From contig NW_024037060.1 in NCBI RefSeq assembly GCF_015706575.1, positions 2,664,515 to 2,728,514 of the forward strand: a DNA stretch of 64,000 bases. The letters run 5' to 3'. Of this stretch, positions 22,260 to 44,078 are shown in pieces (position 1 is the first letter of the stretch; each line of letters opens with the position of its first letter). This DNA comes from Patiria miniata (Eukaryota). The translations under genes and the position numbers were made by a program. The notes under the pieces were generated by a model, which worked only from the letters and a program-made list of their open reading frames with translations, ran no database searches and was not told where the DNA came from.

Positions 22260-22378
22260 ATGGCGGGATTCAATTGGATACTTTTACTGTTCGTGTCGTC
22301 TACTTGGACGTGTTGCGTGCGGGGATCGCTGGAACCAAGTAGTCCTACTTCGTCTCAGAGTACAGCCGTTGGTTGCAG
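22260..22378 (+). CDS. Exon 1 (coding part) of MEGF10/Draper-like receptor: signal peptide MAGFNWILLLFVSSTWTCCVRGSLEPSSPTSSQSTAVGC
   Basis: An ATG in Kozak context is followed by a hydrophobic h-region (WILLLFVSS) typical of a signal peptide. A donor gcag|gtagga lies at 22378/22379. The overlapping 82-aa ORF in the track (22150-22398) is in another frame and has no signal-peptide character. Confidence 0.45.
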
Positions 22379-25300
22379 GTAGGAATGTTCTCCACTGACG
22401 TAACATTTTCTTCCCCGGTTGGAAGTTCCTAATAACACCAATTAAACCCAGAAACTGCTTGGTAACGATCGTTAAAGTGAGTATTTCGTTTCGGAACTGC
22501 TGGAAGGAAAAGAAATCTTTAGTTTTCAAAAAAAAAGATCAACCCATTTCGATTTTATATCGTAATTAACAACTTTGATTTGATCGTCAGTTTGGGTACA
22601 ATATCAATATCATCTGTTGACAGGAATTATAAATTAAATACAAATGTGTATTATTTGACACTTGTATACGTTTTTAGCCCAAAAAAGCCCCAAACCCACT
22701 AATGGCATTGACTTAGGTTGATTGGTATCATGCGCAAGAAATAAAAAAATGTATTGAATTTAAAACTTTGAAATATTTGTCTAGTCCTTAAGGAAATATA
22801 TAAATAAAATAAAATAGAATAGAAGTAGAGATATCCTAAATAAATAAGAAATGAAATGAAAATAAACAAAATGAAAATTCTAAAAACAAAACAACAAACA
22901 AACGATTCTACACACATAAACAGCTATAAATAGAATTTTATTGGATCCGTCTAAACAAATCAAAACAAGAGGAAACGTAATTGTTATAGAAACTCCATAA
23001 CAGTGTCTGCAAGCGCAATATATTTATTAGAAACATCGTTAAGGTAATGTCATGTTTTGTGTAGCAAACACCATGACGTTGACGTCTATGCCGGATATTT
23101 TGAGATTGCCAACTTCCAACAATCATGTTTATCAGTCAACTCGAGGTGAACATCCGCTGATTTATGTTGCCGGTTGATGACATTCAGGCGAGGACTTCGA
23201 GACGAAAACATCATTTGCCTTGAACCCCGAATTCAAAATGTAACTTTAAAATTGGATAAAATCGTTTCCATTCCTCTTACAAAAATATTTACTGTGACGA
23301 TGAGAAGCATGTTCTTATACATAAAATAATTGTCTCAGAAGACTTTGTTTAATTTTCTTATGTGTAACAATAACGTAAAAACCAATACAAATATATAGGC
23401 GATGTAGGAACACATTACCATATTTTGGTACAGAAACCGATATGATTCATGATTAGTTAATAAAATAGGAAAATGTAAATTAAAATCTGCAATAAAATCG
23501 ACATGTTGCAGGCCATGATAAGATTTTTCATGAAATTATTTGTTTAATTCACTTTAAAAAAAGAAAGAAAAGCCGAATCGGCAAAGAAATATAAAATACA
23601 TTGGAAAACATGCGCGACACTGTGAAAAAAATTACACTCTGCGTGTTAACAATGAGTCAAAATACAGCATTTTGTATACCTTAAAAAGTAAAAAAAATAC
23701 GGGAAAATGAATGAAAACAATACAGAATTGTTTACATTGCCCCCTATAGGATCCACTGTATGAAAACAAAGGTTCTGTCTTAATTATGCGACCTATTCGC
23801 TCTTCTGCCCGTTGTACTTACACTATCAGTCAGGAGGCAGCGCTCCATCCAGAACCTCTCATTTCCTTAGTCCCCAGACGGGGAGGGGGGGGGGGGCGTG
23901 TGGGGGGGGGGTTACTGATAGGCAATGAGATGGCTAAACACTCGCTAGCTAGACGATGATATCGGTTCAGATGGTAACGCCCACATCACTCAGTTTTCCA
24001 AATTGTCACGGAATGATAATCGAACTGCATGAAACAAAAGAAGATTGGTCTGTCAGTCATTTGATCACTTTGTTTTCCAACCCAGCGGGTGAAACTCCGG
24101 GTTTTCCTCTCAAGGCTTAGAAGGCAATGATATTTCCTTCCTTGTCTTCTGTTCGTGAGTTAGCAAAATTTGTTTGTCATTTAGCCTGTTTTGATGTATA
24201 TAGGCTTCCCAGGAAGTCCACATCGAAGCGGTGTCATAATGAAACTTGAACTCCCATAAAATCTGGTCTCTTTTACCTTATATGGACTCAAACCCACTCA
24301 CGTGACACATTATTTTTTTTAAATGAATGTCTAAGATTTTTTTTGACAGAGCTGGGGGGGGGGGGGGGTTGACCCCCAAACACCCCCCCCCCCCCCCCCC
24401 TTGATTCGCGCCTGCGCCGAGAACTGCTCGTCAGGCAGGGAAGGGCCTGACTTTTGCTATTCAAACACAATAATCAACGAGTGTGCATTTCATATAAGTC
24501 CAATGACACATCACACTGGTCACACCATGAAGAAATTAGCCCAATGGTCAGGGGTAATCATGTAAAGGCACTGTACACTATTCCAGTGTTTTTGGCAGTG
24601 CCATCGTAATATTTCATTCCAAATCCAGATATCGCGATGGATTTCCTTCTTTTCAATTAAGATAACAATTACGAGATAACTTCTGAAGTCGTTGCTTTCA
24701 TCGGAGAACAATATGAGAAAGAGTTTTGTCTTGATAAGTCGGTCATGGTACTTCCCACTTCAGATAACAAAATTTAAGATAAGTTTCAAAATATTTCCGT
24801 TTTCTATTAAATAATTAAGATTGATCGTGAGAATCCGCCCTATTATTTTCTCGACGGATGTGTTTTTCGACAACTCCATTTGAAATAACGTACAGGATCA
24901 CCCGAGAAAGACGTCGTGTATTATTATCTCAAATACAAAAATGCGTAGAGAATAACGTTCCATTATTAACGGTAATAGGCCGACCAGATTTGGTTCATGT
25001 TGCTGTGTATTTTTCTAGCAATACAAAAGTTAGGCCTATTCACCTTTATAAGAGACATCGAACAATTTGCAAATAATTTTACTTTTACAAATTTAAAATT
25101 ATTTGCAAACGAATTAATTCAGTTGTATCTTTTGTGTATACCATAAGAGTCGCAAAAGCAACCCCACTTAAAAGCTTTTTGAGACGGTTGACACCCAAAG
25201 AAGTAAAAAAAAAAGCATTTTTCGTAAAATAAAAAATAAAGTATAAAATTAAAAATGTGTTCGGTTAAAAAAAAGAGAGTTAAATAGCAGATATAGTACA

Positions 25301-26029
25301 TCTGTCAGGTCTCAAGAGAGGGTGGGGATTGGGAGTTGGGATGGTTTATATTTAGCCAAATCCCCTATAGTAACGGGTAAGAACGAACGCCTTATCAGCA
25401 AAATGACATCGTCTGAATCATAAATCTGGTCATTCGCAAGGGAAAACAAATTAATAGCTTTTAAATTGTGAAGGGGGCGAGAGATAAAGCTGTCTATCGG
25501 TAACAACGAATAGACATGATATCCAGACTTCAAGCAATCCAATGATAAGGAAAAAAGTTACTGATTTATGAATTTTGCTATTTTCTGTGAAAATCGGGCA
25601 TGACATGTAAAATTGTGTAACACTGGGTTGCGCGTCTAAAAATCATCCAAATTCACACTTTCTTGATGCATTCTGCATGATCACAATGTTTACACACATT
25701 CTAATAACAGTAGCCACCGAAACAGTCAGGCCTGCATAGGGAAAAATACTTCGCGAAGAAAAAAGAAAAATAATGTTCCCATCTATCAAAACAAAGGGAG
25801 TCACTTAATTGCTTTTATTGAAAACACAGCCAGACTCACGGAAGAGACGCACATTTACAGTCTGTTATTTTGTCAAAACAAAGACATGGGGCCTACAGAA
25901 TATTGTGTTTATTTATCTGTCATTCACAAGTTGAAATGGTAAACCGAAATGTACCTGAAAGGGAAATCCTCGTTTAGTAAATGAGAACGTTGCTAAACAA
26001 CCTGCATCCGCTGTAGACAATTAGATAGT

Positions 26030-26215
26030 GTGAGGGACGCTTTGTTCGAAGAGTGTAATGTACATCACGTGGTCTTGGTGTAGTAGACGACTGTTTCATG
26101 ATGGCTTTCATAACCAATAATATTTTTTTTATGTGGGATGGGCGCTTTGTTCGCAGAGCTGAATGATCCTCACGTGGTCTTAATAGCATATGGCTGTATA
26201 ATGATGGTATTTTTA
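26030..26215. repeat. Tandem duplication of a ~90-bp unit, each copy carrying a CACGTGGTC E-box
   Basis: gggacgctttgttcgaagagtgtaatgtacatcacgtggtcttggtgtag... is repeated as gggcgctttgttcgcagagctgaatgatcctcacgtggtcttaatag... Confidence 0.5.
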
Positions 26216-27056
26216 AACCTAAACTAAAATCTATTTAAAAAGAGCAAAACCCAATTATTGAAGTTAACTTCAATATTGTTTTGGTTCGGAATAAATCAAC
26301 TAAGCGGGGCAATTGATACCGGTATTGGTTGACATGTTCAATATGTTGAATATTTATTTCAATTGGCGTAACTGGGGTCTCATGATTTGCAGGAAGAGGG
26401 GGAAGGGCTCATTTCTTGAGAGAGAATGCCACCTTCAATGACGACATGACATAAATTATATTTGTTTTTGCTCAGCAGAACAGAACAATCTTTAAGTTTT
26501 TACTACTTAAATGAATTGCTGTCCAAAATGTGGCTGCCTAGACCTGCTTATTAGGAACGTAGGGCCTGACTTGCGTTGGTCATTACCAAGAATCAATTTT
26601 TACATAACAAACTGTTGGGCTTCATACTCTCCTAGGTTTTTGGTGTAAGGTTTTAGGTGTAATCTTAAAATTGTACATGTATTAACAAATACCCCGTCTC
26701 AACATGAAATATGTTTGCCAAAAAAAACCGCATTCAACTGAAATGGTGTGGCAAATGGTTTTGCCTTTTCTTTTTGTGGATAGATGGCCAAATTGCATCC
26801 AAGGATAAACCTTTTACGTCTAAAAACGAAACTTGAGTTTAAACTTCACCCTAAACATGTTGAACTTTACCAACCCCCGCGCGACCTTTAAGTTGCCTTC
26901 CAACATGTAGGGTTGCCGGAAGATGACGGTCTTTGTGGTTTCCTCCTGCGCTTTGGGGGAAGGGGATCACAAGCGAACTCAACGTGATCGAGGTGAAGGG
27001 ACAGCATGTGGGTCAGTTAGAGTATGTGTGGGGGAGGGGTAAGTTGGGTGCTGTGG

Positions 27057-27282
27057 TGGGGTGCTGTGGGTCAATGGTTGGAATACGGTGTTCCACTCGT
27101 GTGCCTTAGTACATGGGTTAATGAATACTGACGGGGAATATGGTGCTTGAGCTCTTGAGCAAGGCATTTTACCATTATTGCTTCGTCCTTCAGATGGGAC
27201 GTCAAGCCGTAGGTCCCGTATGCTGTGCATGTAATGCACGTTAAAGAACCCATTAACACTGATCGCTAAGAGAAGGGGTTTG
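27057..27282 (+). mobile_element. tRNA-derived SINE, copy 2 (sense strand = plus), in intron 1 of the MEGF/Draper-like gene
   Basis: It is the near-exact reverse complement of the element at 57185-57425. The tRNA-like head is GGGGTGCTGTGGGTCAATGGTTGG... Confidence 0.65.
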
Positions 27283-27854
27283 TCCTGGTGTTTCTGGCAA
27301 TGGTTACAATATGCGCTGCAGCACCTAGACCCTTATAAAGGTGCTACACATAATTGATAAGCCGGATTATTGTGATTTGTTTGTATATAATTTTTCAGGA
27401 TTTTTTTGTTAAGTTTCTTTGAAGAATGATAGCTGGATGCTAAATCGGAAGGGTTTCAACTTAAACTTCCAATCAAAAGTTTTAAAAACTGGACTCGGAC
27501 GATTTTTTTTCTCGAGTGAATTGCACCTGAAAAATCTCCAGTTCAGAAACATTAAATACAAATCTGGGAAAATAAGCTCATCTAAATAATCAAATGCTGA
27601 TGCGAAATGAATATTAAATTGTTTTTTCTATTATGCGGCCATGGATTTCACGATCGGTTCAAAGAAAATCGTACAGCATGTAATAAGATTTGGGTGCTAA
27701 ATGAGCCGAGAATGGTGAATTTTGTGTCGGAAACAATCATTATTGTTGGATCGTGGTAAAAAAAACGGATGCAGGTAACAGCACGAGTATGGAGAAAGCT
27801 GTAAAATTAACAAGACTCAAATTTTAATGTTCCTATTTCTGTTTTTTTTTTCAG

Positions 27855-27940
27855 TGATGCAGAGGTCTATCTAAAGCAAGACTGGGACACATTCACTTCC
27901 TGTTGCAAGGCGCTATATCCCAACCAAACATGTCCCATAG
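27855..27940 (+). CDS. Exon encoding the C-terminal end of an EMI domain (DAEVYLKQDWDTFTSCCKALYPNQTCPI)
   Basis: The acceptor is tttttttttcag|TGATGC and the donor is CCATAG|gtgagt. The motif CC-x3-Y-x4-C-P-I matches the 'CCPGYYESGDFCIP' end of the EMI domains of MEGF10, MEGF11, PEAR1 and Draper. The phase is compatible with the next exon. Confidence 0.6.
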
Positions 27941-28100
27941 GTGAGTTAACATTCGGACATATTGGTGAGCTAATGGATAATGTTCTCCCCTTATCATGAT
28001 GCATCCAGATCTAAAATTAAGCGTTATTTCCCTTTCATGTGTACTGGGTGAATAGCTAGCGAAAAAAGTTCTCTTCTGCTGCATATCCATAATAACGTCC

Positions 28101-28336
28101 TACTCTCTAAATTCAGAAGAGTGAAAATTCACTCCAGTCGAGTGAAGATTCACTCCCACAATCGAAAACTAGGGACTAGACGTTTAAGAGTGAAATGTCT
28201 TCAATCGTAAAGATCGAGTTTTCACTCGAGCTTCGTCCGAAGTGGTTCTTTTTCAGGCTATTTAAATCGAAAATGAGAGTGATTTTCACTCTAAAACGTC
28301 TAGTCCCTAATTTCACTCTTTGGAGTTTAGAGAGTA
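28101..28336. mobile_element. Foldback/MITE-like element (~235 bp) in intron of the MEGF/Draper-like gene; TIRs tactctctaaattcagaagagtgaaa / tttcactctttggagtttagagagta
   Basis: The 26-bp TIRs have 4 mismatches. A nested inner inverted repeat is also present (ctagggactagacgtttaagagtgaaa / ttcactctaaaacgtctagtccctaa). Confidence 0.45.
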
Positions 28337-29513
28337 CAGACGTGAAATGAAATAGGCCTGATTGTCGAGCGTAAGAGGGCGCTTTAAATGACGCCATTTG
28401 GGATATAAACATACGTGAATCCAAGGTATTTAGTGAGGAATAAACACATTTTGCAACAGTTAAAACGTAGGCTTAATTTTAAATTAAGTACTTAACTGCT
28501 TCAATAAACAGGATTGGGATTTTTGTATAGTGTTTGTATACACCCAAAAATGGCGTAGTTTCATTCAATGGCGGGTGGACCAGTGTGCAATGAGCTAGCG
28601 ATTAAAGTTTCTCCGGCCCCGGCTAAACATCTAAACCAACTGAGCTGAACACGTCTCCTTTGTGATTGTAGAGTAAGACATTGTTGAGTGAGCTGAACCC
28701 AAGAAATAAAGTTCCGTTCCGTCCTCTGGGTGGTTTACTGCGAGGTCAAACCAAGCATATCCGCATTGAATGATGGATGCTAAAATAGAAAAATAGGAAT
28801 TCCCAAATCGGGTGATTCAACCGAATGAGTCAAAGATGTCAGCACCATCCCGATCCCCGATGCATTTTAAATTGTGTGAGATCTTTGTATGGATGAAACA
28901 ATTTCAGTGAGGTTTCTTAATTCAAAACTTCGTGGAAGCATGAAAAAGACTCGGTGGAAATTCGCCACGGCAAGCACCCGTCACTTCCCGATCAACGAAC
29001 TGCATTACAATCCACACCCCGTGGTTTAATGCAATAAACATGTTACATTATGCTTTTGAGGGGAAATAGGGAACTTGAATTGCCAGCGTCATCGTGACGT
29101 CGTTGTAAATACAGCTGCGTCTGATCTAAAGAAGTTGTCGTGTTAACTCAACCTTGGTACTTTGTGTCCTCAGTTTGTATTTTGGCTAAAATTGTAATGT
29201 TCATGAAAGTTTACAATATGCATTTTTGAAGCAACAACATCCGATTCTTTGAAAACTTTTTATGAGGGCAAATTCTCTTCTGTCTTATTTGTGTTTCTTC
29301 AACCCTATTGCTCAGTCCTTCGGTCGCTTGATTGATTTTCTTTTCGTAGAATTTAGGTGGTTTCAAATTACGCATACATAATAAATGTTTTTCTATTCTC
29401 GAGGAGGACTTTGTCCCCAGTCTAACTGTTATAATTCGAATTACTGGTAAAAATTTGCAGAAATTGAATGACCAATTCTTTTGGGTGATTTTTCACTCCT
29501 CGTTTTTCGTCAG

Positions 29514-29721
29514 CTTGTCCGTGCCGAAACGGGGCCGAATGCTCGCCGAACAACCGAACCTGCGCCTGCAAACCGGGATGGGTCGGCCCCCAGTGTCAAA
29601 GGTCATGTCGGGACAGTGATAATCACACATACGGTCCGGGCTGTAAGCGGAGCTGCCGCTGTGGTCCGGACGCTACGTGCGAACCGATAACCGGCGTCTG
29701 CGAATGCGTCCATCCTGAAAA
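29514..29721 (+). CDS. EGF-like exons 1-2 (CPCRNGAECSPNNRTCACKPGWVGPQCQRSCRDSDNHTYGPGCKRSCRCGPDATCEPITGVCECVHPE)
   Basis: The acceptor is ttttcgtcag| and the donor is GAAAA|gtgagt. The cysteine pattern C-x-C-x2-GW-x-G-x2-C and YGPGC-x3-C-x-C are the laminin-type EGF repeats diagnostic of the MEGF/Draper/CED-1 family. The phase joins the flanking exons without stops. Confidence 0.75.
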
Positions 29722-30124
29722 GTGAGTTCCAATGTGGTCACGTGATTTGTCGTCCAGTATAGACATTATGCACGGCAGCCATCTTTGAGGGCGGTGCTCA
29801 GTCACTGAGTGTGTTTTGTTCAGCCCGTCATTGAAATATTTGTTTATTCTTCGTTACAATATCAGTTACGATAGTTTTCTGATACCTTTCCCCCGCATTT
29901 TCTTAATTATTTCTTTAAATAGTAATGTATTGGTTCATTTATTTATATCATGCATCTATCCTATCTTTATCGATATCTTCTGTTTTATTTATATCAACTG
30001 TTTTAAAACAATATCAATCAATAGTCAATACGCACGGAAGGCAAAAATAACTGAACGAATCGCTGATGTTCTGTTTTCGTACAGGAATAACTTTTTGCTA
30101 TATATATTTTTTTGACGGTGGCAG

Positions 30125-30234
30125 TTGTACAGCGCGTTGCTCTAGAAATCGTTATGGTCCAACATGTCGTCAAAAGTGCCGATGTAAGAAGACGGGCGAG
30201 TGTGATCAAGTGACCGGGGCATGTATCGTGACAG
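30125..30234 (+). CDS. EGF-like exon (NCTARCSRNRYGPTCRQKCRCKKTGECDQVTGACIVT)
   Basis: The acceptor is ggtggcag| and the donor is GACAG|gtatgt. It is in phase with the neighbouring exons and carries the MEGF-type YGPxC...C-x-C...G-x-C pattern. Confidence 0.75.
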
Positions 30235-30771
30235 GTATGTCCGATTCCAACTTGTGGGCGGATCCTGGTGGGAGGGTGTGGATGGGTTAATACCTGTGTA
30301 GGAGTTTAATGCTCGAAAAAAAGGGATTGGGAGAAGCGTGTCCATTCAACAGCATTGATATTACTACTGACTTAGGATTGATTTTAATCAATCCTAAGAA
30401 TATAATCTCTCCGATTTCTGATTCTTCTCCGAAGAAAATCCAAACAAGAATCTGTAAAAAAATAATGAAATATTGCAAAGTCAGTGAGTGCAGTGAAAAA
30501 TTCGGCATTGGTGTGGAACAAAGCGGCTGATGGAGTCCAACTGCAAAAGGTGCAAAAATTTGTGAAAAAGAAGGACATAAAGAGAAAAATCCTCAATCAA
30601 ATATCTTAGCTGTTGTGTCCAAAATCGGACGGAAATCAGAGTGAAGAACATGACTTTATTTTCTTTAAAAGCAAAAGGAAAAAGAAATGCCGAATGAGAT
30701 GGATTCTCATCTCTTGGAAAACAAAGATCAAATGCACAATTTTTTTTCTTCGATTTCGTCCACTGCGAATA

Positions 30772-30986
30772 GATGGCTCACCGTCGAGCTGCGGCTGTTT
30801 GAACGGCGGAACCTGCCGATCTCACGGTAAGCCGTGCCGGTGCCCGGCCGCTTGGACGGGCCGTCTTTGCGACGTTCCTTGCCCGTCGGGATACTACGGA
30901 GATGACTGCTCGATTCAGTGTGAGTGCGGAGACAACTCGACTTGCAGCCGGTCGACCGGGCTGTGTGAATGTACGACTGGAAACAA
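30772..30986 (+). CDS. EGF-like exons (DGSPSSCGCLNGGTCRSHGKPCRCPAAWTGRLCDVPCPSGYYGDDCSIQCECGDNSTCSRSTGLCECTTGN)
   Basis: The acceptor is gcgaatag| and the donor is AACAA|gtaaga. The repeat reads C-x-C-x2-AWTG-x2-C followed by a second laminin-EGF. Phase 1 entering and phase 2 leaving are both consistent with the neighbours. Confidence 0.75.
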
Positions 30987-31231
30987 GTAAGAACAGATCA
31001 ATGGCATTACTGATGAAGTGGAATTGTTTGAAGTATAGGGGAGGGGTGGAGCCTGTGGAAATCAGGGGCGCAACTCTCCGCACGTGTAGGCCTATTGACC
31101 CTACAATTTTAAGGAGTGGAGTAATATGGGAAGTAAAAAAAAGTAATATTATGGCGATTATTATATTGCTTTACTCTTAAGTATTACCCCTGGCCCTATT
31201 CATCAGGCGACGAAACCACTTTTTTTTTCTG

Positions 31232-31400
31232 CAGCAGCTCGAGATCAGCACAATCTGGTTTCTACTCTCACATATACCCATTTATAATGTACCCCTTGGT
31301 GGAGAGAGGAAATTGTAGTAAAATATCTTGCTCAAGAACACAAGCATCACGTTACCAGGCTGGGTTTGAACCAGGACCAATGGACCACGGCACTCCACAG
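31232..31400 (-). mobile_element. tRNA-derived SINE, copy 3, in the intron between EGF exons
   Basis: It has the same head and body as copy 1 (cagcagctcgagatc...ggtggagagagg...gggtttgaacc...tggaccacggcac). A T9 run on the + strand at 31222-31230 corresponds to the A-tail of the - strand element. Confidence 0.6.
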
Positions 31401-31737: not shown

Positions 31738-31892
31738 GTACTCGTGTGTGGGCCGGTGTCCGGAGGGACTGTGCGGTCCGCGGTGCTGGGACGAATGCAG
31801 ATGCCCGGCCGGTCTGGTGTGTCACCAGTGGACGGGAGATTGCGAATGTCGGACAGGCGATTGCACCAACAATCTGATTGGAGCAGCAACAG
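31738..31892 (+). CDS. EGF-like exon (KYSCVGRCPEGLCGPRCWDECRCPAGLVCHQWTGDCECRTGDCTNNLIGAAT)
   Basis: The acceptor is ttttccccag| and the donor is AACAG|gtacac. It is cysteine-rich in an EGF pattern and its phase is consistent with the neighbours. Confidence 0.75.
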
Positions 31893-35820: not shown

Positions 35821-36238
35821 GCCTAGATATAAGCACAGCTACTGTCACCACACCACGTACGACCCAACCTACGCCACTAGAGACTAACGCCACAACTGGT
35901 ACGCTTCCCCCACCCACTTCAACCACCGCCCTGTCTTCACTTCACACCAAGCAGAAAACAACGGTCATCCCCACATCAACCGACGGGTCAACGACACGAC
36001 ACGCGGCCGGGAAAAGCGACGACCGGCCGGCGGCGACGGGCGAGACCGGCCCGGTAGCGGATGGGTCGCCGCAGCGGAGCGACGATGACGCAGCCAAGCC
36101 AGCGGGAAATGGGTTCTATCCGACGGCGCCGTTTTGGGGTGTGGTGGGTACCATCGCGGTGTTGCTCCTGGTCGTCGTCGTATTGCTGTTACTCATACTA
36201 AAGCGACAAGTGTCATCGTCCCGATTGGCATTGACACG
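35821..36238 (+). CDS. Exon encoding a Thr/Pro-rich mucin-like stalk, the transmembrane helix (FWGVVGTIAVLLLVVVVLLLLIL) and the basic stop-transfer KRQVSSSRLALT
   Basis: The acceptor is tcaccaaaag| and the donor is ACACG|gtaagt. A 23-residue hydrophobic stretch is followed by KRQ. The upstream T/P/S-rich segment (TTPRTTQPTPLETNATTGTLPPPTSTT) resembles an O-glycosylated stalk. The phase joins the EGF exon upstream and the cytoplasmic exon downstream. The 162-aa ORF in the track starts artificially at an internal Met. Confidence 0.7.
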
Positions 36239-39080
36239 GTAAGTCCCACATTATTTTTTTTTTTAAATAACTGGTTTACAAAGGTTTACAGAAAAAGGAA
36301 ATGGTTTAAAGAAATAAGGGAAAAACATGCTAGAAAAGTGAATCGGAGGTTTGCGGTAACACCGTGTGAATGATATCTCTTTGTGAGTTGTGTAGTTCTG
36401 AGAAGAACCAGTTAACTGACGTTTCGAAAAGTACGTCAACAGAAAAGGTTATGAAAAATGAATACGTCAGATACGAAGATGTTCACTGTTTCTGTTTTAT
36501 CAAACCACATAATGCGGCATATTGTGCCATATTGGTTCATTACAGATACACAGTGTTAATTGATCCGCGCCACAATTTTTGCATTGTTTCTTTGTTCCCT
36601 GGGTTACAAAGAAAAATCTTGTTTCTGTCAATAGGCCTAGGCATATGGAGTGTTAAAACAAGCATACAATGCACAGAAAGTGAAAGGCTATCCTTGACTT
36701 CTATTCAGTTTCGTAGCGTGCGTCATCAAATACTTTTGCCTGAATATTTAGAACACTAAAAAATGTTGGTATTTAATCGTTCAATAAAGACAACATATTC
36801 ATATAATGTAGCAAATTGAGAACATATTCTGAACCTGAATTTGAAATCTTGTTCTATGCATTTCTTTTCTGCACATGTTGATTCATTGTTCATCAAAGCC
36901 TTTAAAAAGGTTGAGGAAGCAATGACAGTTAAACAAATGCTACCCTCAATACAACCCCTGTTTTATTTGTTATAAATTTTTTTAAACAAATACTTCCCGT
37001 TAAATACAAACTGTGGCGCCGGTCAATATGGCTTGATTCGAGAAACACATGTCACATCAACAATTACAGGTGTTATGATCTTCTGTAGCATCGGTTTTGA
37101 ATCCCATATACAGGAAACGCAACAAAGTCAACACGTCTATATAAAATGGCAGACTGTTCATGCATGTTTATTTAATCAACTCATTTTTTTTCTGTACAAG
37201 TCAGACGTCATTTATATCATTCAAATTTGAAATATATAGGTGATGTCACCCAACTTTCAATTTCGGTACTTTTTTAATATTAAAGTTGCGTTTCCCGTGC
37301 TCTTCAACAAATTCGATTTTTTTCCCTTTCTGTTGAAACATTTTTCAACTTGTGTATGTTTTATGCCAAAAGAAATCCTCTGTTTTCCCCCTTAGTTGGG
37401 GGGGGGGGGGGGGGGGGGGGGGGGACCAAAACAGATCTGGCTTCCAGTCCATACATTGTCGATACCTGTTGTGGGGGAGGGGGACCAGCCTACTTCAGAG
37501 AACGGAATTATTGTCCGGCAGCCAATAAAACAAAATTGATAATAATTCAATAACTAAACACTGGCTGAATTTTTTTTTTTGGGGGGGGGTCGATGTCTCA
37601 TTCAAAGTGAATAACTTCTGCATTGCTAGAAAAATAGCAATTTAGAAAGGAAATCTGTTTTTCAGGATGATACTCTTTAATTCATTATCGGGCGACGCTC
37701 TTCTATTCTGTATAGTGCCCGAACGTGTTGATTATAGGTCATAATTTCTTTCAGATGTATTGAATTCTTCTGACGAGGTCATGATTCATTTTTGCTTCAC
37801 AATCTCATCACTTTCCGTTTCGCATCAAAATTTGACAAACATGATAGATCATGGCATACTTCAAAGCTTACATTTTGGGGAGGGGGGGGGGAGGTAGATG
37901 AGTTTTGTGTTTATTGAAACTACGACCGAATTTGAGGACCCACCGTGTTCCTCGTGCTAATTGGACTCGTGCGCAACTGCATAATAATTGATAATTTATT
38001 TTACCGGTATTTGTGTTTGTTTATTGAACCTTTGTTTCATCCTTTAAATACATGAATACGTTCTACACAATACATGCAGACTTTTACGTGAATTTTTTTT
38101 CCTTCATCTCGATTGTCAAAACTTTGAAGATTTCCCACTCGGACACGTGATAGGAGAAGTTCTGAGATAAAAAGTATAGGCCCCCTATTGTTAAGAAATT
38201 GAATTATTGGACTTTATAGATTATCAAAATTGGGTCTTCAGAGATCCCTTTTTGAGGTAATGTGGTATTTACAATGACTTGCAGTTTGGCCACATGATAA
38301 ACCGCACAACATTTGTAGAAATAGGCCAAATTTCCTTGACCAAAACATTGAAGGAAAATCCTGGGGAATTTTGTTTTATATAACTCTGGCAACGATTGTG
38401 AAATGTGACACTAATCAGCCGAACACTTACACAAGGAAATAAATTGTTCAGGAAATGTTATTTTAGTACAGTGTACGAGGGTTATAAGGGCAGTGCGATA
38501 ACGAGTTTCAATCGTACATCAATCGGATATTCGACAATCGAAGTATCGAATATCGAGAACCCCCCCCCCCCAAAAAAACCCACTAACACGCACCAACACG
38601 CACATTTTGTTTATGGTGTAAATCGAGGATTTTCTACTATTCCTCATCATCGGTCTTTTGTTTATACTTTTTTTGCAACAGTTCTCATCGGTTTTGTACA
38701 CGTTTTCTAATCGAGGTCGTCCTCGATTTGGTTCCTGTCCTCAATTACTCGATGATGCTTCACATGACTTTTTGTGTGTCCTCGATTTACACCATAAACA
38801 TGTGCACACCACACACGCACACTTTCAAAGTCATGTCAAAAAAAAAGGTTTTTCCAAGATCGACCGTCCATTTGAAAGACTGTTAATTTACATGAGGAAA
38901 ATATATACCGTATCACGCTTACATGCACGAATAACCGAATACTCGATACCCCATCTCACCATATTGCCGGTATCGAATACCCAGTATCAATCGCTTAATC
39001 GGTTTCCTGGTTGACACACATAACAATGCAACTTGTCCTGCTTATAAAAACGCCACCGCTTTGCTTTCATTTTTCAATAG

Positions 39081-39157
39081 GCAACCGAAGATTTGCCGGC
39101 AAGACAACGTTTACGAAACAGTGGAGGATCTGGGCAAAGGCGCAGCTATCGAACAAG
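39081..39157 (+). CDS. Juxtamembrane cytoplasmic exon (RQPKICRQDNVYETVEDLGKGAAIEQ)
   Basis: The acceptor is ttttcaatag| and the donor is AACAAG|gtaagc. Only this reading frame keeps phase between the TM exon (phase 2) and the terminal exon (phase 1). It contains a DNVY motif. Confidence 0.55.
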
Positions 39158-42100
39158 GTAAGCTGGACATTTTTGGATCATATTTCATTTGGGAAAACAA
39201 ACAAGATAGCAAGGTATAATAAATTTCAATTGTGAAGAGAATATGCAAAATATGACTGTAAATCTGACTCCATTGTGTGAAGGGTGTTCTGTTGGATTTA
39301 AAAGTACGCATTAAACAGCTTTTGTTTTAAATCACTTTCACCTATATCATTTCAAAAGCATTGTCTTTTATGGGTAGGTATACATTCAGACGCCACTTTT
39401 GCAGTCTGTTCAAAATTGAGCTGTATATGATTTCATGACCTGACGTGCAGGCTCATCGGGCGAATTTGAGTGGTCGCTTAAAAGCAGATAGGATCGTTTG
39501 TTTTCATAAATTTTGCGTGTCCACTAATTGCGCCACTCAAAATCCATTGAAGAGTGTTGAAAACCTAACCTGTTAAAGTTTCAGCTCAGTGGATATGACA
39601 CTTTTTCTAGAAAACAGTTTATTGGTTCATTGGTTTATTTTTCATATCATCGAACATAATTCACAAGAATCTATTTAAAGAAAAACAAAAATGATATGAG
39701 AGATCCAGATAAAAACCACGCACAACCTTTTGAGCACGAACTTCGTCCATAGCACTCTTTAGTTCCATTCAATTATTGACTGATCGTTGGAAATCACCTA
39801 CATTTCTTGATTTCTCCTAAATGACAGCAAGCCAGACGGAATTATTTCACGGGGTGTTTAGTACCAGTGCGATCTTTAATCCATTAATAATTTGATAATA
39901 ATTCGGTATACAGCCTGTCTAAAAAAAATGGTACAATCGAAAACGAGTTTTTTTCAATATTAAATCTCAACATAAGTAAGTCGTTTTGAGCATCACATTA
40001 AAGAAAAAAGACCAGGCTTTCCAATACTTTTTGTTTCATCTCATTTGCTTTTGTCAATCCAGAGATAACTCCAGTTTACTGCGGAACACAAAAATCGAGT
40101 TTGTTTCTTTTGCCAAGTTGCAATCTTTTGTGAGCTTCAAGACAGCATAGCACAGTACTCGAAACAACTCTGCCCATGCATAAAAGTGGCACAAAATCGA
40201 TTTTGGTGTATCGCACTAAATTGATTATATCTCTGAATTTACAAAAGCAAATAAGATCAAACAAACGCTATTGGAAAGCCCAGTCTTTGTTCTTTAATAT
40301 TATGCCAAGTAAGAATGACTTATTTTGAAATTTCATATTTAACCATTTTTTTTTCTGATTGTACCATTTTTTTTTTGACAGGCTGTTACATTTGTGATAA
40401 ATGCAAATGATCCTATATAGATGCCTTTAAAACCCACAGTCGACTTAAGATTGTAGTCTGCAAGATTTCGTTTGCAAAAATAAAAAAAGTCCTCAAGCTC
40501 GAAAAAAGGGGACCAATGCAATTGCAAGACAGTGATTACAACACTGCCAAAAGTTGGTTCAATGAAAACCATCTCTACTGATTCAATAATGACAGAAGAG
40601 ACTCACAATGGTGGGCTTTGTTGCACTACAGTGGTTAAAGATCAAAGATGGTTCTCCGTGGCGTTATTTTCGAGTTTCACGTCGAAAAGTTGATTTTTTT
40701 TCTTTCAAACTGTTGTTTCCTTAGCAAATTAAAAGTTATTCACTTTTGAATGAGGCATCGAACGAAACATTCCACCGACTCATAGTCATGGAATTAATTC
40801 TTCCTACAGATTCGAATGATTGACTGCCAGACAATGATTCGGCTCTAGCAGGGCGGGTTCATTTTTTGCGCAAAATGAAAGTCCTTTTTCAGAGGGTTGC
40901 AGACGCCCAAAATCAAAATAATATAGCTTTATTTGAATTAAAAAAACTAAACAAACAGTCAAAATTGAACATTCGTTAGGAGGAAATATTCCCGTTTTTT
41001 TTTAGGAGCACAAGGTTCGTAACTTGAATGCCACGTTGCAGTAATGTTCTTTTATCAATGTTCAGTGTCACCAAAAAAAACCCCCGTGCAATTTTTAGAT
41101 GAATGTGGCGGCGGATGTTATGATAATTTCTGAAAAGAAAAACACCGATATTCCATCGGAGTTCTCTTTCAAAGAAGGAAAAATGTACTCACAAAAATGT
41201 TTATTTCTGTGTCTGATGTGTCATGTTACCACAGCAATACCTTTCAAAAGAGGAAGAACTTTGACAAAATATTTATCAATTTCGGTATGGATGTTTATGC
41301 ATTGAAATTGACACCGATCAACTTTCTCTTCGAACGATGAATGGTGTTTTTTTCCATCGTCAGCAGTAATATCAGAACAAAAAGGCGATATACTGTACAT
41401 TATGCAACATTCGAATTAAAGGCATATAATATCATTTGCATTTATCCCAAAAGTAAGCTGGCGATACGATTTACTATCAAAAAGTGTACTTGGATTAAAG
41501 ATCGCACTGGTATAAACACCCCGTCACATTCTTCCATCTAGCTCTCTGTCCTTTATAAGAAATCAAGAAATGTATCATGATTTCCAAAGATCAGTCAGCT
41601 GACCGATCGTTGGAAATAAAGAGTTATATTTATATTGCCGAGAATGGTACGTTGTGCACAAACGTTTTCAAACTTTCATGACTCCTATAACCCCTATTTT
41701 ACCTTATCCTACCCCCACCAGTTTGGGTACATTTGTGTTTTGGACCACCAGCAATCGATCTAGCCTATTTGCGACATTTAAAATGTTGCCTCTAAATAGG
41801 AGTGTGGCATTGGGAGACATTAAAATGTGTCCTTAATCTACCAGTCGCCCTATAAGGTATAACATTATGACGAAAAAATATCTCGTTAAGGGTACTCATT
41901 CACAGGAATTAATGAAATCAAAAGCATGTGCGTGGTTTCCTCAAAATATGTAATATCCATGAGCTGAAACTTGAACAGTGGAATAGTTTTGGAACATTCT
42001 TTTTTGGATTTTGAGTGGTGTTATTGTTGGAAACGAAGAACAGGCATGAAAAGCAAATGATCCTGTAAGCCCAAAACGTTCGTGTCACTAGACCTTCGTG

Positions 42101-42420
42101 CGCAAACCGCAGGACTATCGACCTGAAAAGACCGACTTTAGAGCAAGATGCCAACCACGCGAACAGTCTGTGGCTTGGTCGCTGACGTGACTTTTAACGC
42201 TGATGATTCTCAGTAGAATCCAACAGGATGTTCGATTTGTCAGCACAGTTCGTGGGGTTTTGCTGAATGCTTTAAAAATAGAATCGGGATAGTATATAGT
42301 CTGTGCCTTACATGAGCAGTTCATGCATTATCAACATTAATCGTTTCAGAACACTTCCGCACTTAGTTTGGAGAAATAACTAGTTAAAAGTGCCATTTCT
42401 TCTATTGTTTGTTTCAAAAG

Positions 42421-44078
42421 TTATCAAGACACCTCCACCGCTACCAGACATGTTTCAACGAGGAGGCAGCACGAGATCTAGCGTGCACAGCTACCACCAC
42501 AGGCCGTTATCCGTGCATTCACCACTGCCGACCATGGACGCCCCACTGCCGGCCAGCGTGGCGGCCATGGTGTGCAACTACGGTGGTGGCCCGCCGGTAC
42601 CGGGCGGTACATCGCGCCGGAGTCTCATGGCCGAGTGGCGTCCCCACGGAGTGCGGGACTCGCAATCAAATCTTATAGATGACCCCAAGACCCAGAATCG
42701 CAGTGGCAAAGCGCTGAGCTGTATCTACAACGGTGGTATTATGATCGAGGATGATTACGCAGATCCTTTTGATACGATCGCACCGACCGGTAACACGGGG
42801 AACCGACCAGCTGGCTACTTACCGATGATTCTAGGACAAGACCAAAGACGGAGCCAATCCCCGGTTCCGAGGAGCAGGACACCGCCAAACCTCTCACGGG
42901 GAAGTTCTCCTGTGACAGTACCTAGGAGTGACTCTCCCATGGGGGTTCAACGATGCGATTCTCCAATGGCGGTACAACGATCTGATTCCCCGATGACGGT
43001 TCAACGATCCGATTCCCCGATGACGGTTCAACGCTGCGAGTCCCCGATGTCTACCCAGCGAAGCTCGTCTCTCATGAACGTCCAACAAAGGTCTGCCTCC
43101 CCCATGACTGTTCACCAAAGTGAACCCAATTTGCATCTCCAGCAGACTGACTCCAACATGAACTTCCATCCCAGTAACTCTTCTGTAGATCTCCGTAAGG
43201 GATTCATGGGAAGTCCATCCAGCTCTCCTCAGAGACAGAGTGCATCCGGATCCCCAAGCTTCGATCCATTTTACTTTACCCTCGAGCAGGGAGCCAAGCC
43301 AGACAGCCCCAAGGGTCCTGATGATGATTACGATGAGCTGGAGCCACAGTCACCCATCAACTCTCCAGCAGGAGGGTTACCATTCGACGGCCGGTCTGCA
43401 TCATCTCGTACAAGCAGCGAGCGCTCCAGGGCGTCATCTCATGCTTCGTCTCGAGGCTCCCTCTCCGCCAACTCCCCCACCTTAGCGTCTTCCTTCGGCT
43501 CTAGCCCGCGCGATGCCGAGATGTTCGCGGTGTTAGACCGCAGACCGGAGACACCCATCAGGCCGGATCTGCCGCGGCGACTTGTGTCCAGCAACGTGTA
43601 CGCGTCCTGCGGGCCTCCCAAGACGTCCTCCACACCGGCGGACGATGGGATCTACTCCAGGTTGAACAGGACCCCATCCCAACGGATGGAGCTACCGACC
43701 GCTCCGCGTGGAGTAGCGGACCTGGACATGAGTACCTACGGTAGGCTGCAGCGTAGCTACTCGGCCAAAATTCCCGCCCGTAACACCACCGATGGCCCGT
43801 ACGGGAAGCTTCCCCAGCGTAGCAGGTCAGCGATGGTTAAGAGTCATCAAAACGTGAGCGGATCGGCGTCGGCCGTGGATTGCGAAGCGGGAGAATGGGT
43901 GCCTGCCGAACTGCACCCACGCCTCGGGCCCCGGAGAACCAAACCGCCTAACGTGACGGAACCACGGAAGAAATCTCGCTGGAGTATCAAGGGCAAGCTG
44001 GGCAAAAAATCGCCAGCGGAGATGGATTTTGACTGCCCATCATCGACGGCAACTCTGCCCTACCCTGGTGATTGGTAG
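42421..44078 (+). CDS. Terminal exon: ~550-aa Ser/Pro-rich disordered cytoplasmic tail with 6-7 tandem nonapeptide repeats (S/C-D-S-P-M-x-V-Q-R) and three YxxL motifs; stop codon at 44076-44078
   Basis: The 562-aa ORF in the track is this exon. The acceptor gtttcaaaag| at 42420 falls inside the ORF and is in phase with the preceding exon (g+tt gives Val). The composition is typical of MEGF10/PEAR1/Draper tails (S/P-rich with multiple tyrosines). The tandem repeats and the YSRL, YGRL and YGKL motifs are read directly from the sequence. Confidence 0.75.

What the first reader, a model, noticed from the sequence alone, without database searches (positions are those of the whole stretch)
22260..44078. 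Compact MEGF10/Draper/CED-1-family receptor gene reconstructed across 9+ exons
Hand-splicing gives one open, phase-consistent product across nine exons. In order these are a signal peptide, the EMI-domain end (CCKALYPNQTCPI), four laminin-type EGF repeats (CxCxxGWxGxxC, YGPxC), a T/P-rich stalk, a TM helix, and a ~580-aa Ser/Pro-rich tail. The EMI plus MEGF-type EGF plus single TM combination is the hallmark of the engulfment-receptor family (CED-1, Draper, MEGF10/11, PEAR1, Jedi). This member has far fewer EGF repeats than vertebrate MEGF10 (~15 or more) and replaces them with a mucin-like stalk. This could be a short paralogue in the Nimrod/Draper style or a lineage-specific variant.
Basis: partly seen in the sequence, partly recalled or inferred. 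Interest (0 to 1): 0.6.

Follow-up and report, generated by a model that had tools for sequence, protein, structure and literature searches.

The report
Sea-star EGF-repeat receptor lacking EMI
This is a real nine-exon sea-star gene, already annotated as "uncharacterized", that encodes a membrane receptor related to the MEGF10/Draper cell-engulfment receptors but lacks their defining N-terminal EMI domain and adaptor-binding NPxY motif, and it belongs to a subfamily found here only in echinoderms.

Summary
The gene is real. After a one-base correction (exon 5 starts at 30773, not 30772), the nine exons give a 1014-aa ORF. It is 100% identical over its full length to NCBI's Patiria miniata LOC119729553, named "uncharacterized protein".

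Architecture:
- signal peptide
- 43-aa N-terminal module
- Thr/Pro-rich stalk
- transmembrane helix
- 589-aa cytoplasmic tail

Collinear orthologues exist in two other sea stars, two sea urchins and a crinoid. All score 330–420 bits on the ectodomain profile; every other protein scores 130 or less.

The MEGF10/Draper/CED-1 reading is partly right:
- The nearest non-echinoderm relatives are MEGF10/11, PEAR1 and Draper proteins.
- The tail's juxtamembrane motif DNVYETVEDL matches the first half of the Syk-binding ITAM of vertebrate MEGF10/PEAR1 (ENPYATIKDL).
- The claimed "EMI end" is not EMI. It failed three sequence tests with positive controls, and the window holds no EMI exon.
- NPxY and a canonical ITAM are absent in sea stars and urchins.

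Best reading: an echinoderm-restricted, EMI-less variant of the MEGF/class-F scavenger receptor superfamily, probably signalling through conserved Yxx[L/V] sites. Function is untested. Interest is modest.

The parts
22260..22378 (+). Exon 1 (CDS aa 1-40). Start codon with A at -3 and G at +4; signal peptide aa 1-22 (22260-22325); start of the N-terminal module including C39.
   Evidence: An in-frame stop lies 33 nt upstream. The hydrophobic N-terminus is conserved in orthologues.
27855..27940 (+). Exon 2 (aa 40-69). Conserved N-terminal module SDAEVYLKQDWDTFTSCCKALYPNQT, with the CC doublet at 27901-27906 and the first Cys of EGF1. This is not an EMI domain.
   Evidence: AG/GT sites. The motif is conserved in sea stars, urchins and a crinoid. 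EMI tests were negative.
29514..29721 (+). Exon 3 (aa 69-138). EGF1 (loosely NIM-like: CPIACPCRNGAECSPNNRTCACKPGW), the linker CRDSDNHTYGPGC, and EGF2.
   Evidence: (111.8 bits to the echinoderm ectodomain HMM).
30125..30234 (+). Exon 4 (aa 138-175). Linker CSRNRYGPTC and the truncated EGF3 (four Cys only).
30773..30986 (+). Exon 5 (aa 175-246). EGF4, the linker CPSGYYGDDC, and EGF5.
   Evidence: 30773 was the only AG acceptor tested in 30740-30799 that gives an open frame. Also.
31738..31892 (+). Exon 6 (aa 246-298). Linker and EGF6; start of the stalk.
35821..36238 (+). Exon 7 (aa 298-437). Thr/Pro-rich mucin-like stalk; the conserved SPQR…FYPTAPFWGVV juxtamembrane segment; TM helix aa 403-425 (36135-36203); stop-transfer KRQ.
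   Evidence: The stalk is the least conserved region (51% / 26% identity).
39081..39157 (+). Exon 8 (aa 437-463). Juxtamembrane tyrosine motif DNVYETVEDL (NVYETVEDL = 39106-39132), similar to the first half of the MEGF10/PEAR1 ITAM.
42421..44078 (+). Exon 9 (aa 463-1014 plus TAG). Ser/Pro-rich tail with conserved blocks: PPPLPDMF (42432-42455), GGTSRRSLMAEWRP (42603-42644), EDDYADPFD (42747-42773), DPFYFTLEQ (43263-43289), DDDYDEL (43320-43340), DDGIYSRLNR (43641-43670), TYGRLQRSYSA (43734-43766), PQRSRSAMVK (43812-43841), EWVPAE (43893-43910), and a basic cluster (43956-44009).
   Evidence: GC is 0.55 over 42001-44000.
42944..43049 (+). 27-nt tandem repeat (3.9 copies, 86% matches) encoding the [SC][DE]SPM[TAGS]VQR nonapeptide repeats. 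Copy number differs between the sea-star species.

Best explanation
The locus is the protein-coding gene LOC119729553 of the bat star Patiria miniata. It encodes a type I single-pass surface receptor. The protein belongs to an echinoderm-restricted subfamily (found in sea stars, sea urchins and crinoids) of the MEGF10/11-PEAR1-Draper and class F scavenger receptor superfamily of multiple-EGF receptors.

Shown here:
- The exon structure.
- The domain order: signal peptide, 43-aa Cys-poor N-module, six MEGF-type EGF units, O-glycosylation-type Thr/Pro stalk, TM helix, 589-aa tail.
- The phyletic spread.
- The absence of EMI and, in sea stars and urchins, of NPxY.
- A tail that is as conserved as the ectodomain.

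Inferred mechanism:
- The stalk holds the rigid EGF array away from the membrane, and the array binds a ligand or a partner on another cell.
- Clustering exposes the tail to Src-family kinases, which phosphorylate the conserved acidic Yxx[L/V] sites: NVYETV at TM+25, DDYADPF, DDYDEL, DGIYSRL and YGRL.
- These sites recruit SH2 proteins (Syk/Shark-type kinases or phosphatases).
- The membrane-proximal YETV and the two DPF motifs could also drive AP-2/clathrin uptake.

On this reading it works like a Draper/MEGF10-type adhesion or engulfment receptor that has lost the EMI module and the CED-6/GULP (NPxY) arm.
For: Gene model:
- 100% identity over 100% of the length to the NCBI model.
- AG/GT at every junction after the 1-nt correction.
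- Exon GC 0.58 against intron GC 0.377.
- Orthologue alignment runs through all junctions with only 1-2-residue gaps near two of them.

A distinct clade:
- Patiria, Acanthaster, Asterias, Diadema (two species) and Antedon score 330-420 bits as one collinear domain.
- Every other protein scores 130 or less.

Superfamily:
- 1354 relatives at E<=1e-3.
- The named top hits are MEGF10/11, Draper and PEAR1 from eight phyla.
- PDB hits are SCARF1 and the Tie2 EGF region.

Tail under constraint:
- 80% / 60% identity for aa 427-600 and 74% / 52% for aa 701-1014.
- This compares with 73% / 62% for the EGF region and 51% / 26% for the stalk.

Tyrosine motifs:
- Five Yxx[L/V] sites are conserved in all three sea stars.
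- The order NxY[EA][TI]V, then DDYA[DE]P, then DYDEL, then DGxYSxLNR is kept in Diadema.

ITAM-half match:
- A PWM built from seven vertebrate MEGF10/PEAR1 windows (ENPYATIKDL) picks the juxtamembrane site as the best site in 5 of 5 orthologues.
- Against 2000 shuffles the counts reaching the real score were 0, 1, 10 and 11 for four of them.
- That vertebrate tyrosine corresponds by its 18-residue spacing to Jedi-1 Y923, an ITAM residue where Syk binds (PMC4055271).
Against: - There is no experimental or expression evidence for any function. No paper mentions the locus, and the Patiria single-cell atlas supplements held as text do not list it.
- The ITAM-half match was noticed post hoc. It fails a 20-residue HMM test, is not significant in Diadema, and is absent from the invertebrate Draper and MEGF11 tails, so it could be convergent.
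- No canonical ITAM spacing is present, and NPxY is absent in sea stars and urchins.
- Overall tail similarity between echinoderm classes is not significant by BLAST.
- The protein hits no Pfam EGF_laminin or EGF_PEAR1L model above threshold.
- The AlphaFold model of the ectodomain was unusable, with mean pLDDT 43.
- Only one SCARF sequence was available for comparison.
Confidence: 0.6

Rival explanations
1. It is the genuine echinoderm orthologue of CED-1/Draper/MEGF10, with only the EGF number reduced. It would then work through the canonical EMI-dependent ligand or adhesion function and the NPxY-CED-6/GULP plus ITAM-Syk pathways.
For: - The top named relatives are MEGF10/11, Draper and PEAR1.
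- The domain order (short module, loosely NIM-like EGF1, then MEGF-type EGFs, TM, Tyr-rich tail) mirrors Draper.
- The crinoid orthologue P0031 has an NPIY.
- The ITAM-half motif matches.
- NCBI names the looser crinoid relative P0117 'MEGF10'.
Against: - EMI is absent by four tests with positive controls, and the window has no EMI exon.
- NPxY and ITAM are absent in sea stars and urchins.
- The clade is separated from all MEGF/Draper proteins by about 200 bits or more.
- The tail has no detectable similarity to any non-echinoderm protein beyond a 10-residue motif.
Confidence: 0.12
2. It is an echinoderm class F scavenger receptor (SCARF1/2-like): an EMI-less EGF-repeat endocytic receptor with a long Ser/Pro-rich tail that binds polyanionic ligands and internalises them.
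For: - The gross layout is the same.
- The human SCARF1 N-terminal fragment aligns collinearly from the CC doublet (query 32-120 to chain 22-111; E = 7.8e-8 and 2.4e-4).
- The CC-x8-C-x3-C skeleton resembles SCARF1's CC-x9-C-x4-C.
- The asteroid tail is 27% Ser+Pro.
- A membrane-proximal Yxxφ and two DPF motifs suit endocytosis.
- The scavenger-receptor nomenclature groups MEGF10 with SCARF1/2 (PMC11563577).
Against: - Fish SCARF1 scores only 45 bits as a single domain, ranking 162 of 184 sequences held, against 107-130 bits for PEAR1, MEGF11 and Draper.
- SCARF1's CCxGW segment matches the end of the EMI profile at +10 to +16 bits, while the echinoderm module scores -17 to -0.8.
- BLASTP shows no tail similarity to SCARF1.
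- Ser/Pro richness drops to 20% in the urchin and 17% in the crinoid, so it is not a family trait.
Confidence: 0.15
3. It is mainly a non-signalling adhesion or mucin-type surface protein, or a contact receptor like NimA. The EGF array and stalk would mediate cell-cell or cell-matrix contact, and the tail would serve as a Ser/Thr-phosphorylated scaffold instead of a tyrosine-signalling platform.
For: - A mucin-like stalk is present.
- The tail has many invariant SP, RRxS and RSxS sites and a basic cluster.
- NimA, the short Draper-like fly protein, acts in adhesion and not in phagocytosis (PMC13076899).
Against: - NimA and PEAR1 adhesion need the EMI domain, which is absent here.
- The conserved acidic Yxx[L/V] sites and the ITAM-half match point to tyrosine signalling.
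Confidence: 0.1

Closest known systems
MEGF10 / MEGF11 / PEAR1 (Jedi-1) of vertebrates; Draper of insects; CED-1 of C. elegans (Draper-type Nimrod / SR-F3 receptors)
   Same: - Type I single-pass receptor.
- An array of MEGF-type EGF units (CxCx5Cx6CxC joined by Cx3-8[YFW]GxxC).
- These are the best-scoring non-echinoderm relatives among those whose names I looked up.
- Tyr-rich tail with YxxL sites.
- The juxtamembrane DNVYETVEDL resembles ENPYATIKDL, the first half of the Syk-binding ITAM of PEAR1/MEGF10.
   Different: - No EMI domain: a 43-aa, 3-Cys module replaces the roughly 75-aa, 6-7-Cys domain, with no CCxGY.
- Only six EGF units.
- A roughly 100-aa mucin-like stalk.
- No NPxY in sea stars or urchins, and no canonical ITAM.
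- The tail is 2-4 times longer than the PEAR1/MEGF10-type tails I extracted (589 aa against 133-256 aa) and otherwise unrelated in sequence.
SCARF1 / SCARF2 (SREC-I/II, class F scavenger receptors)
   Same: - EMI-less layout: signal peptide, a short Cys module with a CC doublet directly ahead of EGF1, EGF repeats, TM, and a long low-complexity Ser/Pro-rich tail.
- The PDB SCARF1 fragment aligns collinearly from the CC doublet.
   Different: - SCARF1 keeps CCxGW; this protein does not.
- The EGF array scores much lower against SCARF1 than against MEGF/PEAR1.
- There is no tail similarity.
- I know of no stalk in SCARF1 (from my own knowledge, not tested here).
Nimrod C-type receptors of insects (NimC1, Eater)
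   Same: - EMI-less, short N-terminal module with a CC doublet before the first repeat.
- Repeat array, Ser/Thr-rich stalk (known for Eater; from my own knowledge), single TM.
- Phagocyte receptors.
   Different: - The defining CCxGY motif and the NIM consensus CxPxCxxxCxNGxCxxPxxCxCxxGY (PMC4073527) are not met.
- Only EGF1 fits a relaxed NIM pattern; the other units are MEGF-type.
- Nimrod C tails are short (from my own knowledge).
Antedon mediterranea XP_071942564 (P0189) and Anneissia japonica XP_033096471 (P0117): looser echinoderm relatives
   Same: - EGF-repeat single-pass proteins of echinoderms.
- The P0189 tail shares NSYTEVE, PPALP, DDDYD, NYGRLQ and YGSLNR with the Patiria tail.
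   Different: - P0189 keeps a true CCNGY short module.
- P0117 lacks the CC doublet and has a 147-aa tail.
- Both score well below the collinear orthologues.

Membership tests
CED-1 / Draper / MEGF10-11 / PEAR1 | N-terminal EMI domain (about 70-75 aa, 6-7 Cys, ending in CCxG[YWF]…C) | tested here: not met
   - Only 43 aa and 3 Cys lie upstream of EGF1.
- A 44-sequence EMI HMM scores the six echinoderm modules -17 to -0.8 bits; 300 shuffles gave a 95th percentile of -0.7 and a maximum of 2.9.
- hhalign probability is 0.1%.
- Pfam PF07546 finds nothing at E<=10, while the controls P0068, P0185 and P0186 score 33-57 bits.
- No EMI exon occurs in the six-frame translation of the window.
CED-1 / Draper / MEGF10-11 / PEAR1 | Array of MEGF/laminin-type EGF repeats following the N-terminal module | tested here: met
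   - Five complete CxCx5Cx6CxC units plus one truncated unit, joined by Cx[YFW]GxxC linkers.
- The best non-echinoderm profile hits are MEGF10/11, Draper and PEAR1.
- Caveat: the protein reaches no Pfam EGF_laminin or EGF_PEAR1L threshold.
CED-1 / Draper / MEGF10-11 / PEAR1 | Single transmembrane helix, type I topology | tested here: met
   One hydrophobic peak at aa 403-425 (Kyte-Doolittle 3.46), followed by KRQ. An N-terminal hydrophobic signal sequence is present.
CED-1 / Draper / MEGF10-11 / PEAR1 | Cytoplasmic NPxY motif (binding site for the CED-6/GULP PTB domain) | tested here: not met
   - No NP.Y in Patiria, Acanthaster, Asterias or Diadema. One NPIY occurs in the crinoid P0031.
- For comparison, 48 of 93 non-echinoderm tails in the hit set have NPxY.
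CED-1 / Draper / MEGF10-11 / PEAR1 | Cytoplasmic YxxL or ITAM (YxxL/I-x6-12-YxxL/I) for Syk/Shark | tested here: inconclusive
   - There is no canonical ITAM.
- Five Yxx[L/V] sites are conserved in the three sea stars.
- The juxtamembrane motif matches the first ITAM half of vertebrate MEGF10/PEAR1 in the PWM test but not in the HMM test.
CED-1 / Draper / MEGF10-11 / PEAR1 | Function in engulfment or adhesion; binding of CED-6/GULP or Syk | not testable with these tools
   No expression or functional data were found.
SCARF1 / SCARF2 (class F scavenger receptors) | Short N-terminal Cys module with CCxGW directly before the EGF repeats (no full EMI) | tested here: inconclusive
   - The CC-x8-C-x3-C skeleton aligns collinearly with the SCARF1 fragment.
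- The GW is missing, and the module gets no score on the segment of the EMI profile where SCARF1 scores +10 to +16.
SCARF1 / SCARF2 (class F scavenger receptors) | Closest sequence relationship of the EGF ectodomain and tail to SCARF proteins | tested here: not met
   - Fish SCARF1 reaches 45 bits as its best single domain and ranks 162 of 184.
- BLASTP similarity is 30-34% and confined to the EGF region, with none in the tail.
- Only one full-length SCARF sequence was available.
Nimrod superfamily (NimC/Eater type) | [quoted passage not shown] | tested here: not met
   There is no CCxG[YWF] and no strict NIM match. Only EGF1 fits a relaxed NIM pattern. The consensus is taken from PMC4073527.

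The most novel reading that the evidence does not exclude
Echinoderms, the phylum in which phagocytosis was first described in sea-star larvae (my own knowledge), may carry their own lineage-specific engulfment or immune receptor family, derived from a Draper/MEGF10-like ancestor. On this reading the family discarded the EMI domain and the NPxY-GULP arm. It retained the first ITAM tyrosine next to the membrane and multiplied acidic YxxL docking sites, including a hemITAM-like DDGxYSxLN, along a 590-aa tail that is as constrained as the ectodomain. That would be an independent route to hemITAM/Syk-type signalling from an EGF-repeat receptor.
Probability: 0.15. Interest if true: 0.6.

Novelty: new variant of a known kind. 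Interest (0 to 1): 0.3.

Why it matters
If the proposed mechanism holds, this gives echinoderm immunology and developmental biology a concrete, conserved candidate for a Draper/MEGF10-like adhesion or engulfment receptor. It would operate without EMI and without the CED-6/GULP site.

That separates two arms of the pathway that are bundled together in flies, worms and mammals. It would also make the roles of EMI and NPxY testable by natural deletion.

The result also flags an annotation gap. The clade is named "uncharacterized" in the sea-star, urchin and crinoid records I looked up, while a looser crinoid relative is labelled "MEGF10".

As it stands, this is a correctly predicted but ordinary uncharacterised EGF-repeat receptor gene in a phylum where I would expect many such genes (my own knowledge).

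Tried and rejected
- **Pfam scan as an EMI test.** Not usable at first, because bona fide EMI proteins (PEAR1, Draper, MEGF11) also gave no EMI hit. I repeated it with working positive controls and added my own EMI HMM and hhalign tests.
- **AlphaFold2 of the ectodomain with a 3-sequence alignment.** Mean pLDDT was 43, so I did not run a fold search.
- **Word-indexed protein searches with the ectodomain alone (42 candidates) and with an EMI alignment (19 candidates).** Both were too insensitive. The second was meant to find a separate full-EMI MEGF10/Draper gene in echinoderms, and that question stays open.
- **The look-up of encoding contigs for P0001.** The protein is not on record, so I got no annotated gene neighbourhood.
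- **Marginal EMI-profile hits on the opposite strand (15770-15943 and 20570-20650).** These are non-coding chance matches in the wrong order, and I rejected them.
- **BLASTP between tails of different echinoderm classes.** Not significant; only the motif order is shared.
- **A 20-residue HMM of the vertebrate ITAM-half window.** No signal. The ungapped 10-residue PWM did give a signal, so the result depends on the method.
- **PDB search with the tail.** No hit.
- **Literature and supplement searches for the locus and the skeletal proteome paper.** Nothing could be mapped to this gene.
- **AATAAA scan.** The signal is not enriched, so I could not define the 3' end of the transcript.
- **Identity of the best PDB hit, 6u11_A.** I could not establish what this protein is.

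Full report
**1. Observation**

Eight have AG acceptors and GT donors exactly as given. The acceptor of exon 5 at 30772 is preceded by TA and shifts the frame. Starting exon 5 at 30773 uses a true AG and was the only AG acceptor tested in 30740-30799 that yields an open frame. The result is a 3045-nt CDS and a 1014-aa product ending in TAG.

This product is 100% identical over 100% of its length to NCBI's "uncharacterized protein LOC119729553 [Patiria miniata]". So the window comes from the bat star, an echinoderm, and an independent annotation pipeline reached the same model.

Further support for the model:
- Exon GC is 0.58 against 0.377 for introns.
- The last exon is a 562-aa open frame in a genome of about 40% GC.
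- The start codon has A at -3 and G at +4, with an in-frame stop 33 nt upstream.
- The alignment with the Acanthaster planci (70-74% identity) and Asterias amurensis (51-56%) orthologues runs through all eight junctions, with only 1-2-residue gaps near two of them.
- No further EGF-like segment occurs in any of the six frames of the window.

**2. Anatomy**

- aa 1-22: hydrophobic signal sequence.
- aa 23-65: N-terminal module with only three cysteines (C39, C56, C57) and the conserved core SDAEVYLKQDWDTFTSCC.
- aa 66-288: six EGF-like units. Five are complete CxCx5Cx6CxC units and one is truncated. They are joined by Cx3-8[YFW]GxxC linkers.
- aa 291-395: stalk, 24% Thr and 11% Pro.
- aa 403-425: transmembrane helix.
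- aa 426-1014: tail of 589 aa, 15% Ser and 12% Pro. It includes a 27-nt tandem repeat (3.9 copies, 42944-43049) that encodes SDSPMTVQR-type nonapeptides.

The tail is not a free-drifting low-complexity region. Its identity between sea stars is 80% / 60% for aa 427-600 and 74% / 52% for aa 701-1014. That equals the EGF region (73% / 62%) and far exceeds the stalk (51% / 26%). Conservation is concentrated in blocks: NVYETV, PPPLPDMFQRGG, GGTSRRSLMAEWRP, EDDYADPFD, DPFYFTLEQ, DDYDEL, YSRLNR, YGRLQRSYSA, PQRSRSAMVK, EWVPAE and a basic cluster.

**3. Relatives**

An exhaustive HMMER search with the three-sea-star profile found 1354 proteins at E<=1e-3.

Besides the sea-star cluster, three proteins align as one collinear stretch from the N-module through the TM helix. 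All are named "uncharacterized":
- Diadema setosum and D. antillarum (sea urchins)
- Antedon mediterranea (a crinoid)

On a profile of five echinoderm ectodomains these score 330-420 bits as a single domain, and everything else scores 130 or less. The gene therefore represents a discrete subfamily present in at least three echinoderm classes.

Looser echinoderm relatives exist:
- Anneissia P0117, which NCBI labels MEGF10.
- Antedon P0189, which keeps a true CCNGY short module and shares several tail motifs with Patiria (NSYTEVE, PPALP, DDDYD, NYGRLQ, YGSLNR).

Outside echinoderms, the best-scoring proteins whose names I looked up are MEGF10, MEGF11, Draper or PEAR1. They come from an annelid, a crayfish, a sea spider, amphioxus, a bivalve, a nemertean, a sponge, insects, ticks and vertebrates. 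About a quarter of the top hits carry a full EMI domain.

**4. The EMI claim**

A first Pfam scan found no EMI, but I then saw that real EMI proteins (PEAR1, MEGF11, Draper) also got no EMI hit. That negative result was therefore uninformative. I ran five further tests:
- Pfam with working positive controls. PF07546 is called in P0068, P0185 and P0186 at 33-57 bits. Nothing is called in the Patiria, Diadema or Antedon N-termini at E<=10.
- My own 78-position EMI HMM, built from 44 EMI domains of the hit set. Two independent proteins it recovered carry precomputed PF07546. The echinoderm modules score -17 to -0.8 bits. Three hundred shuffles gave a 95th percentile of -0.7 and a maximum of 2.9. 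Fish SCARF1 scores +10.5 and human SCARF1 +16.4 on the CCxGW…C segment.
- Profile-profile comparison, which gave a probability of 0.1%.
- The motif CCxG[YWF], which is absent from all six echinoderm members and present in 77 of 186 proteins held.
- A six-frame scan of the window with the EMI HMM. It found nothing on the gene's strand, and two marginal opposite-strand hits were non-coding.

EMI is therefore absent. What remains is a CC doublet eight residues before EGF1. That skeleton also occurs in SCARF1, whose solved N-terminal fragment aligns collinearly from the CC onward.

**5. Cytoplasmic hallmarks**

The literature defines the CED-1/Draper/MEGF10 family by three features (PMC8092387; PMC4055271):
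- an EMI domain followed by EGF repeats outside the cell
- NPxY in the tail, which binds CED-6/GULP
- YxxL or an ITAM in the tail, which binds Syk or Shark

The sea-star and urchin proteins have no NPxY and no canonical ITAM. The crinoid orthologue has one NPIY. Five Yxx[L/V] sites are conserved in all three sea stars.

Across classes the tails are not significantly similar by BLAST. But the order of acidic tyrosine motifs is kept in the urchin, and partly in the crinoid:
- N-x-Y-[EA]-[TI]-V at TM+22 to +27
- DDYA[DE]P at about +150
- DYDEL
- DGxYSxLNR

The first of these resembles ENPYATIKDL of vertebrate MEGF10/PEAR1. The pattern N.Y[AE]T[IV] occurs in 8 of 93 non-echinoderm tails, against 0.05 expected, and all 8 are vertebrate MEGF10/PEAR1-type tails. 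One stingray variant reads ENVYATIQDL. The 18-residue spacing to the next tyrosine identifies that residue as Jedi-1 Y923, a Syk-binding ITAM tyrosine.

Because I noticed this post hoc, I tested it in two ways:
- A 20-residue HMM gave no signal.
- An ungapped 10-residue PWM, built from vertebrate sequences only, picked the juxtamembrane site as the top site in all five collinear orthologues. The number of 2000 shuffles reaching the real score was 0 for Patiria, 1 for Asterias, 10 for Acanthaster and 11 for Antedon. It was not significant in Diadema or in the invertebrate Draper and MEGF11 tails.

I treat this as suggestive of shared ancestry with the MEGF10/PEAR1 tail. Convergence is not excluded.

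**6. SCARF and Nimrod alternatives**

The SCARF reading fits the EMI-less layout, the CC skeleton and the Ser/Pro-rich tail. Against it:
- The only full SCARF1 I had scores 45 bits as a single domain (rank 162 of 184), against 107-130 for PEAR1, MEGF11 and Draper.
- It shares nothing with the tail.
- Ser/Pro richness is a sea-star trait and not a clade trait: 27% in sea stars, 20% in the urchin, 17% in the crinoid.

The Nimrod C hallmarks are CCxGY and the NIM consensus (PMC4073527). Neither is met; only EGF1 fits a relaxed NIM pattern.

**7. Mechanism**

Shown here: a secreted-pathway type I protein with a rigid EGF array on a mucin-like stalk, and a long tail under purifying constraint that is studded with conserved acidic tyrosine motifs, SP sites, RRxS/RSxS sites and two DPF motifs.

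Inferred: ligand or partner binding by the EGF array clusters the receptor. Src-type kinases then phosphorylate the Yxx[L/V] sites, which recruit SH2 proteins. The membrane-proximal YETV (a Yxxφ motif) and the DPF motifs may couple the receptor to AP-2 and clathrin.

It would thus work like a Draper/MEGF10-type adhesion or engulfment receptor that lacks both the EMI-dependent function and the GULP arm. In NimA and PEAR1, the EMI-dependent function is needed for adhesion (PMC13076899).

I found no expression or functional data. The ectodomain structure prediction was unusable, and the tail has no solved relative.

**8. Verdict**

- The gene is already annotated but uncharacterised.
- I classify it as a new variant of a known kind: an echinoderm-restricted, EMI-less, NPxY-less, long-tailed MEGF/SR-F receptor.
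- Interest is modest at 0.3. It would rise if a role in phagocytes and hemITAM-type signalling were shown.

Noticed in passing
window 47594-48124 (- strand): A 176-aa ORF (…LQRIQNSAARLV…LHWLPIRQRIRYKTLLLTFKALNG…) looks like the C-terminal part of a non-LTR retrotransposon reverse transcriptase. That resemblance is from memory. It has no Pfam hit.
   Followed up: partly
window 51991-53790 and 59875-60810 (- strand): Two long ORFs (599 aa and 311 aa) lie in a GC-richer stretch (0.44-0.49). They are Ser/Lys/Asp-rich and have no Pfam hit. They are probably exons of a neighbouring gene transcribed convergently with the receptor gene.
   Followed up: partly
window 1012-1179 (- strand): An open segment encodes a transmembrane-like stretch followed by a basic stop-transfer (DLVVIIAAAVGGGALLIAVIVGCVCYQKKCRKKDNK). 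It may be an exon of an upstream gene.
   Followed up: no
method: Pfam PF07546 (EMI) against P0014, P0015, P0022, P0029, P0052: The Pfam EMI model misses plain EMI domains of Draper, MEGF11 and PEAR1, while it calls those of P0068, P0185 and P0186. A Pfam-negative result alone is therefore weak evidence that EMI is absent.
   Followed up: yes
P0189 (Antedon mediterranea XP_071942564), aa 1-60 and the last 260 aa: This second crinoid EGF-repeat receptor has a SCARF/Nimrod-style short module (C-x9-CCNGY-x6-C). Its tail shares NSYTEVE, PPALP, DDDYD, NYGRLQ and YGSLNR with the Patiria tail. That hints at a wider echinoderm family, and that the Patiria N-module is a further-degenerated CCxGY module.
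   Followed up: partly
window 31772-31774 (Cys258, exon 6): Patiria has an extra cysteine in the last linker (CPEGLCGPRC). Acanthaster has CPQGLFGPRC and Asterias has CPPGVYGPRC.
   Followed up: no
P0002 (Acanthaster planci LOC110974573 isoform X2), N-terminus: This isoform starts MNDNNIESDAEVYL and lacks the signal peptide and C39. That implies an alternative first exon or an incomplete model in that species.
   Followed up: no
window 22221-22229 (+ strand): A two-codon upstream ORF (ATG TGC TAA) lies in frame with the main start codon and ends 30 nt before it.
   Followed up: no
window 43641-43670 (aa 870-879, DDGIYSRLNR): This motif resembles the hemITAM of C-type lectin receptors (DEDGYxxL; from memory) with one extra residue. 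It is conserved as DDGVYSRL in Acanthaster and NDGQYSHLNR in Diadema.
   Followed up: partly
PDB 6u11_A: The best solved-structure match of the ectodomain (E = 3.7e-12) is an entry named only 'EGF-like domain-containing protein'. I could not establish its identity from the literature library.
   Followed up: partly
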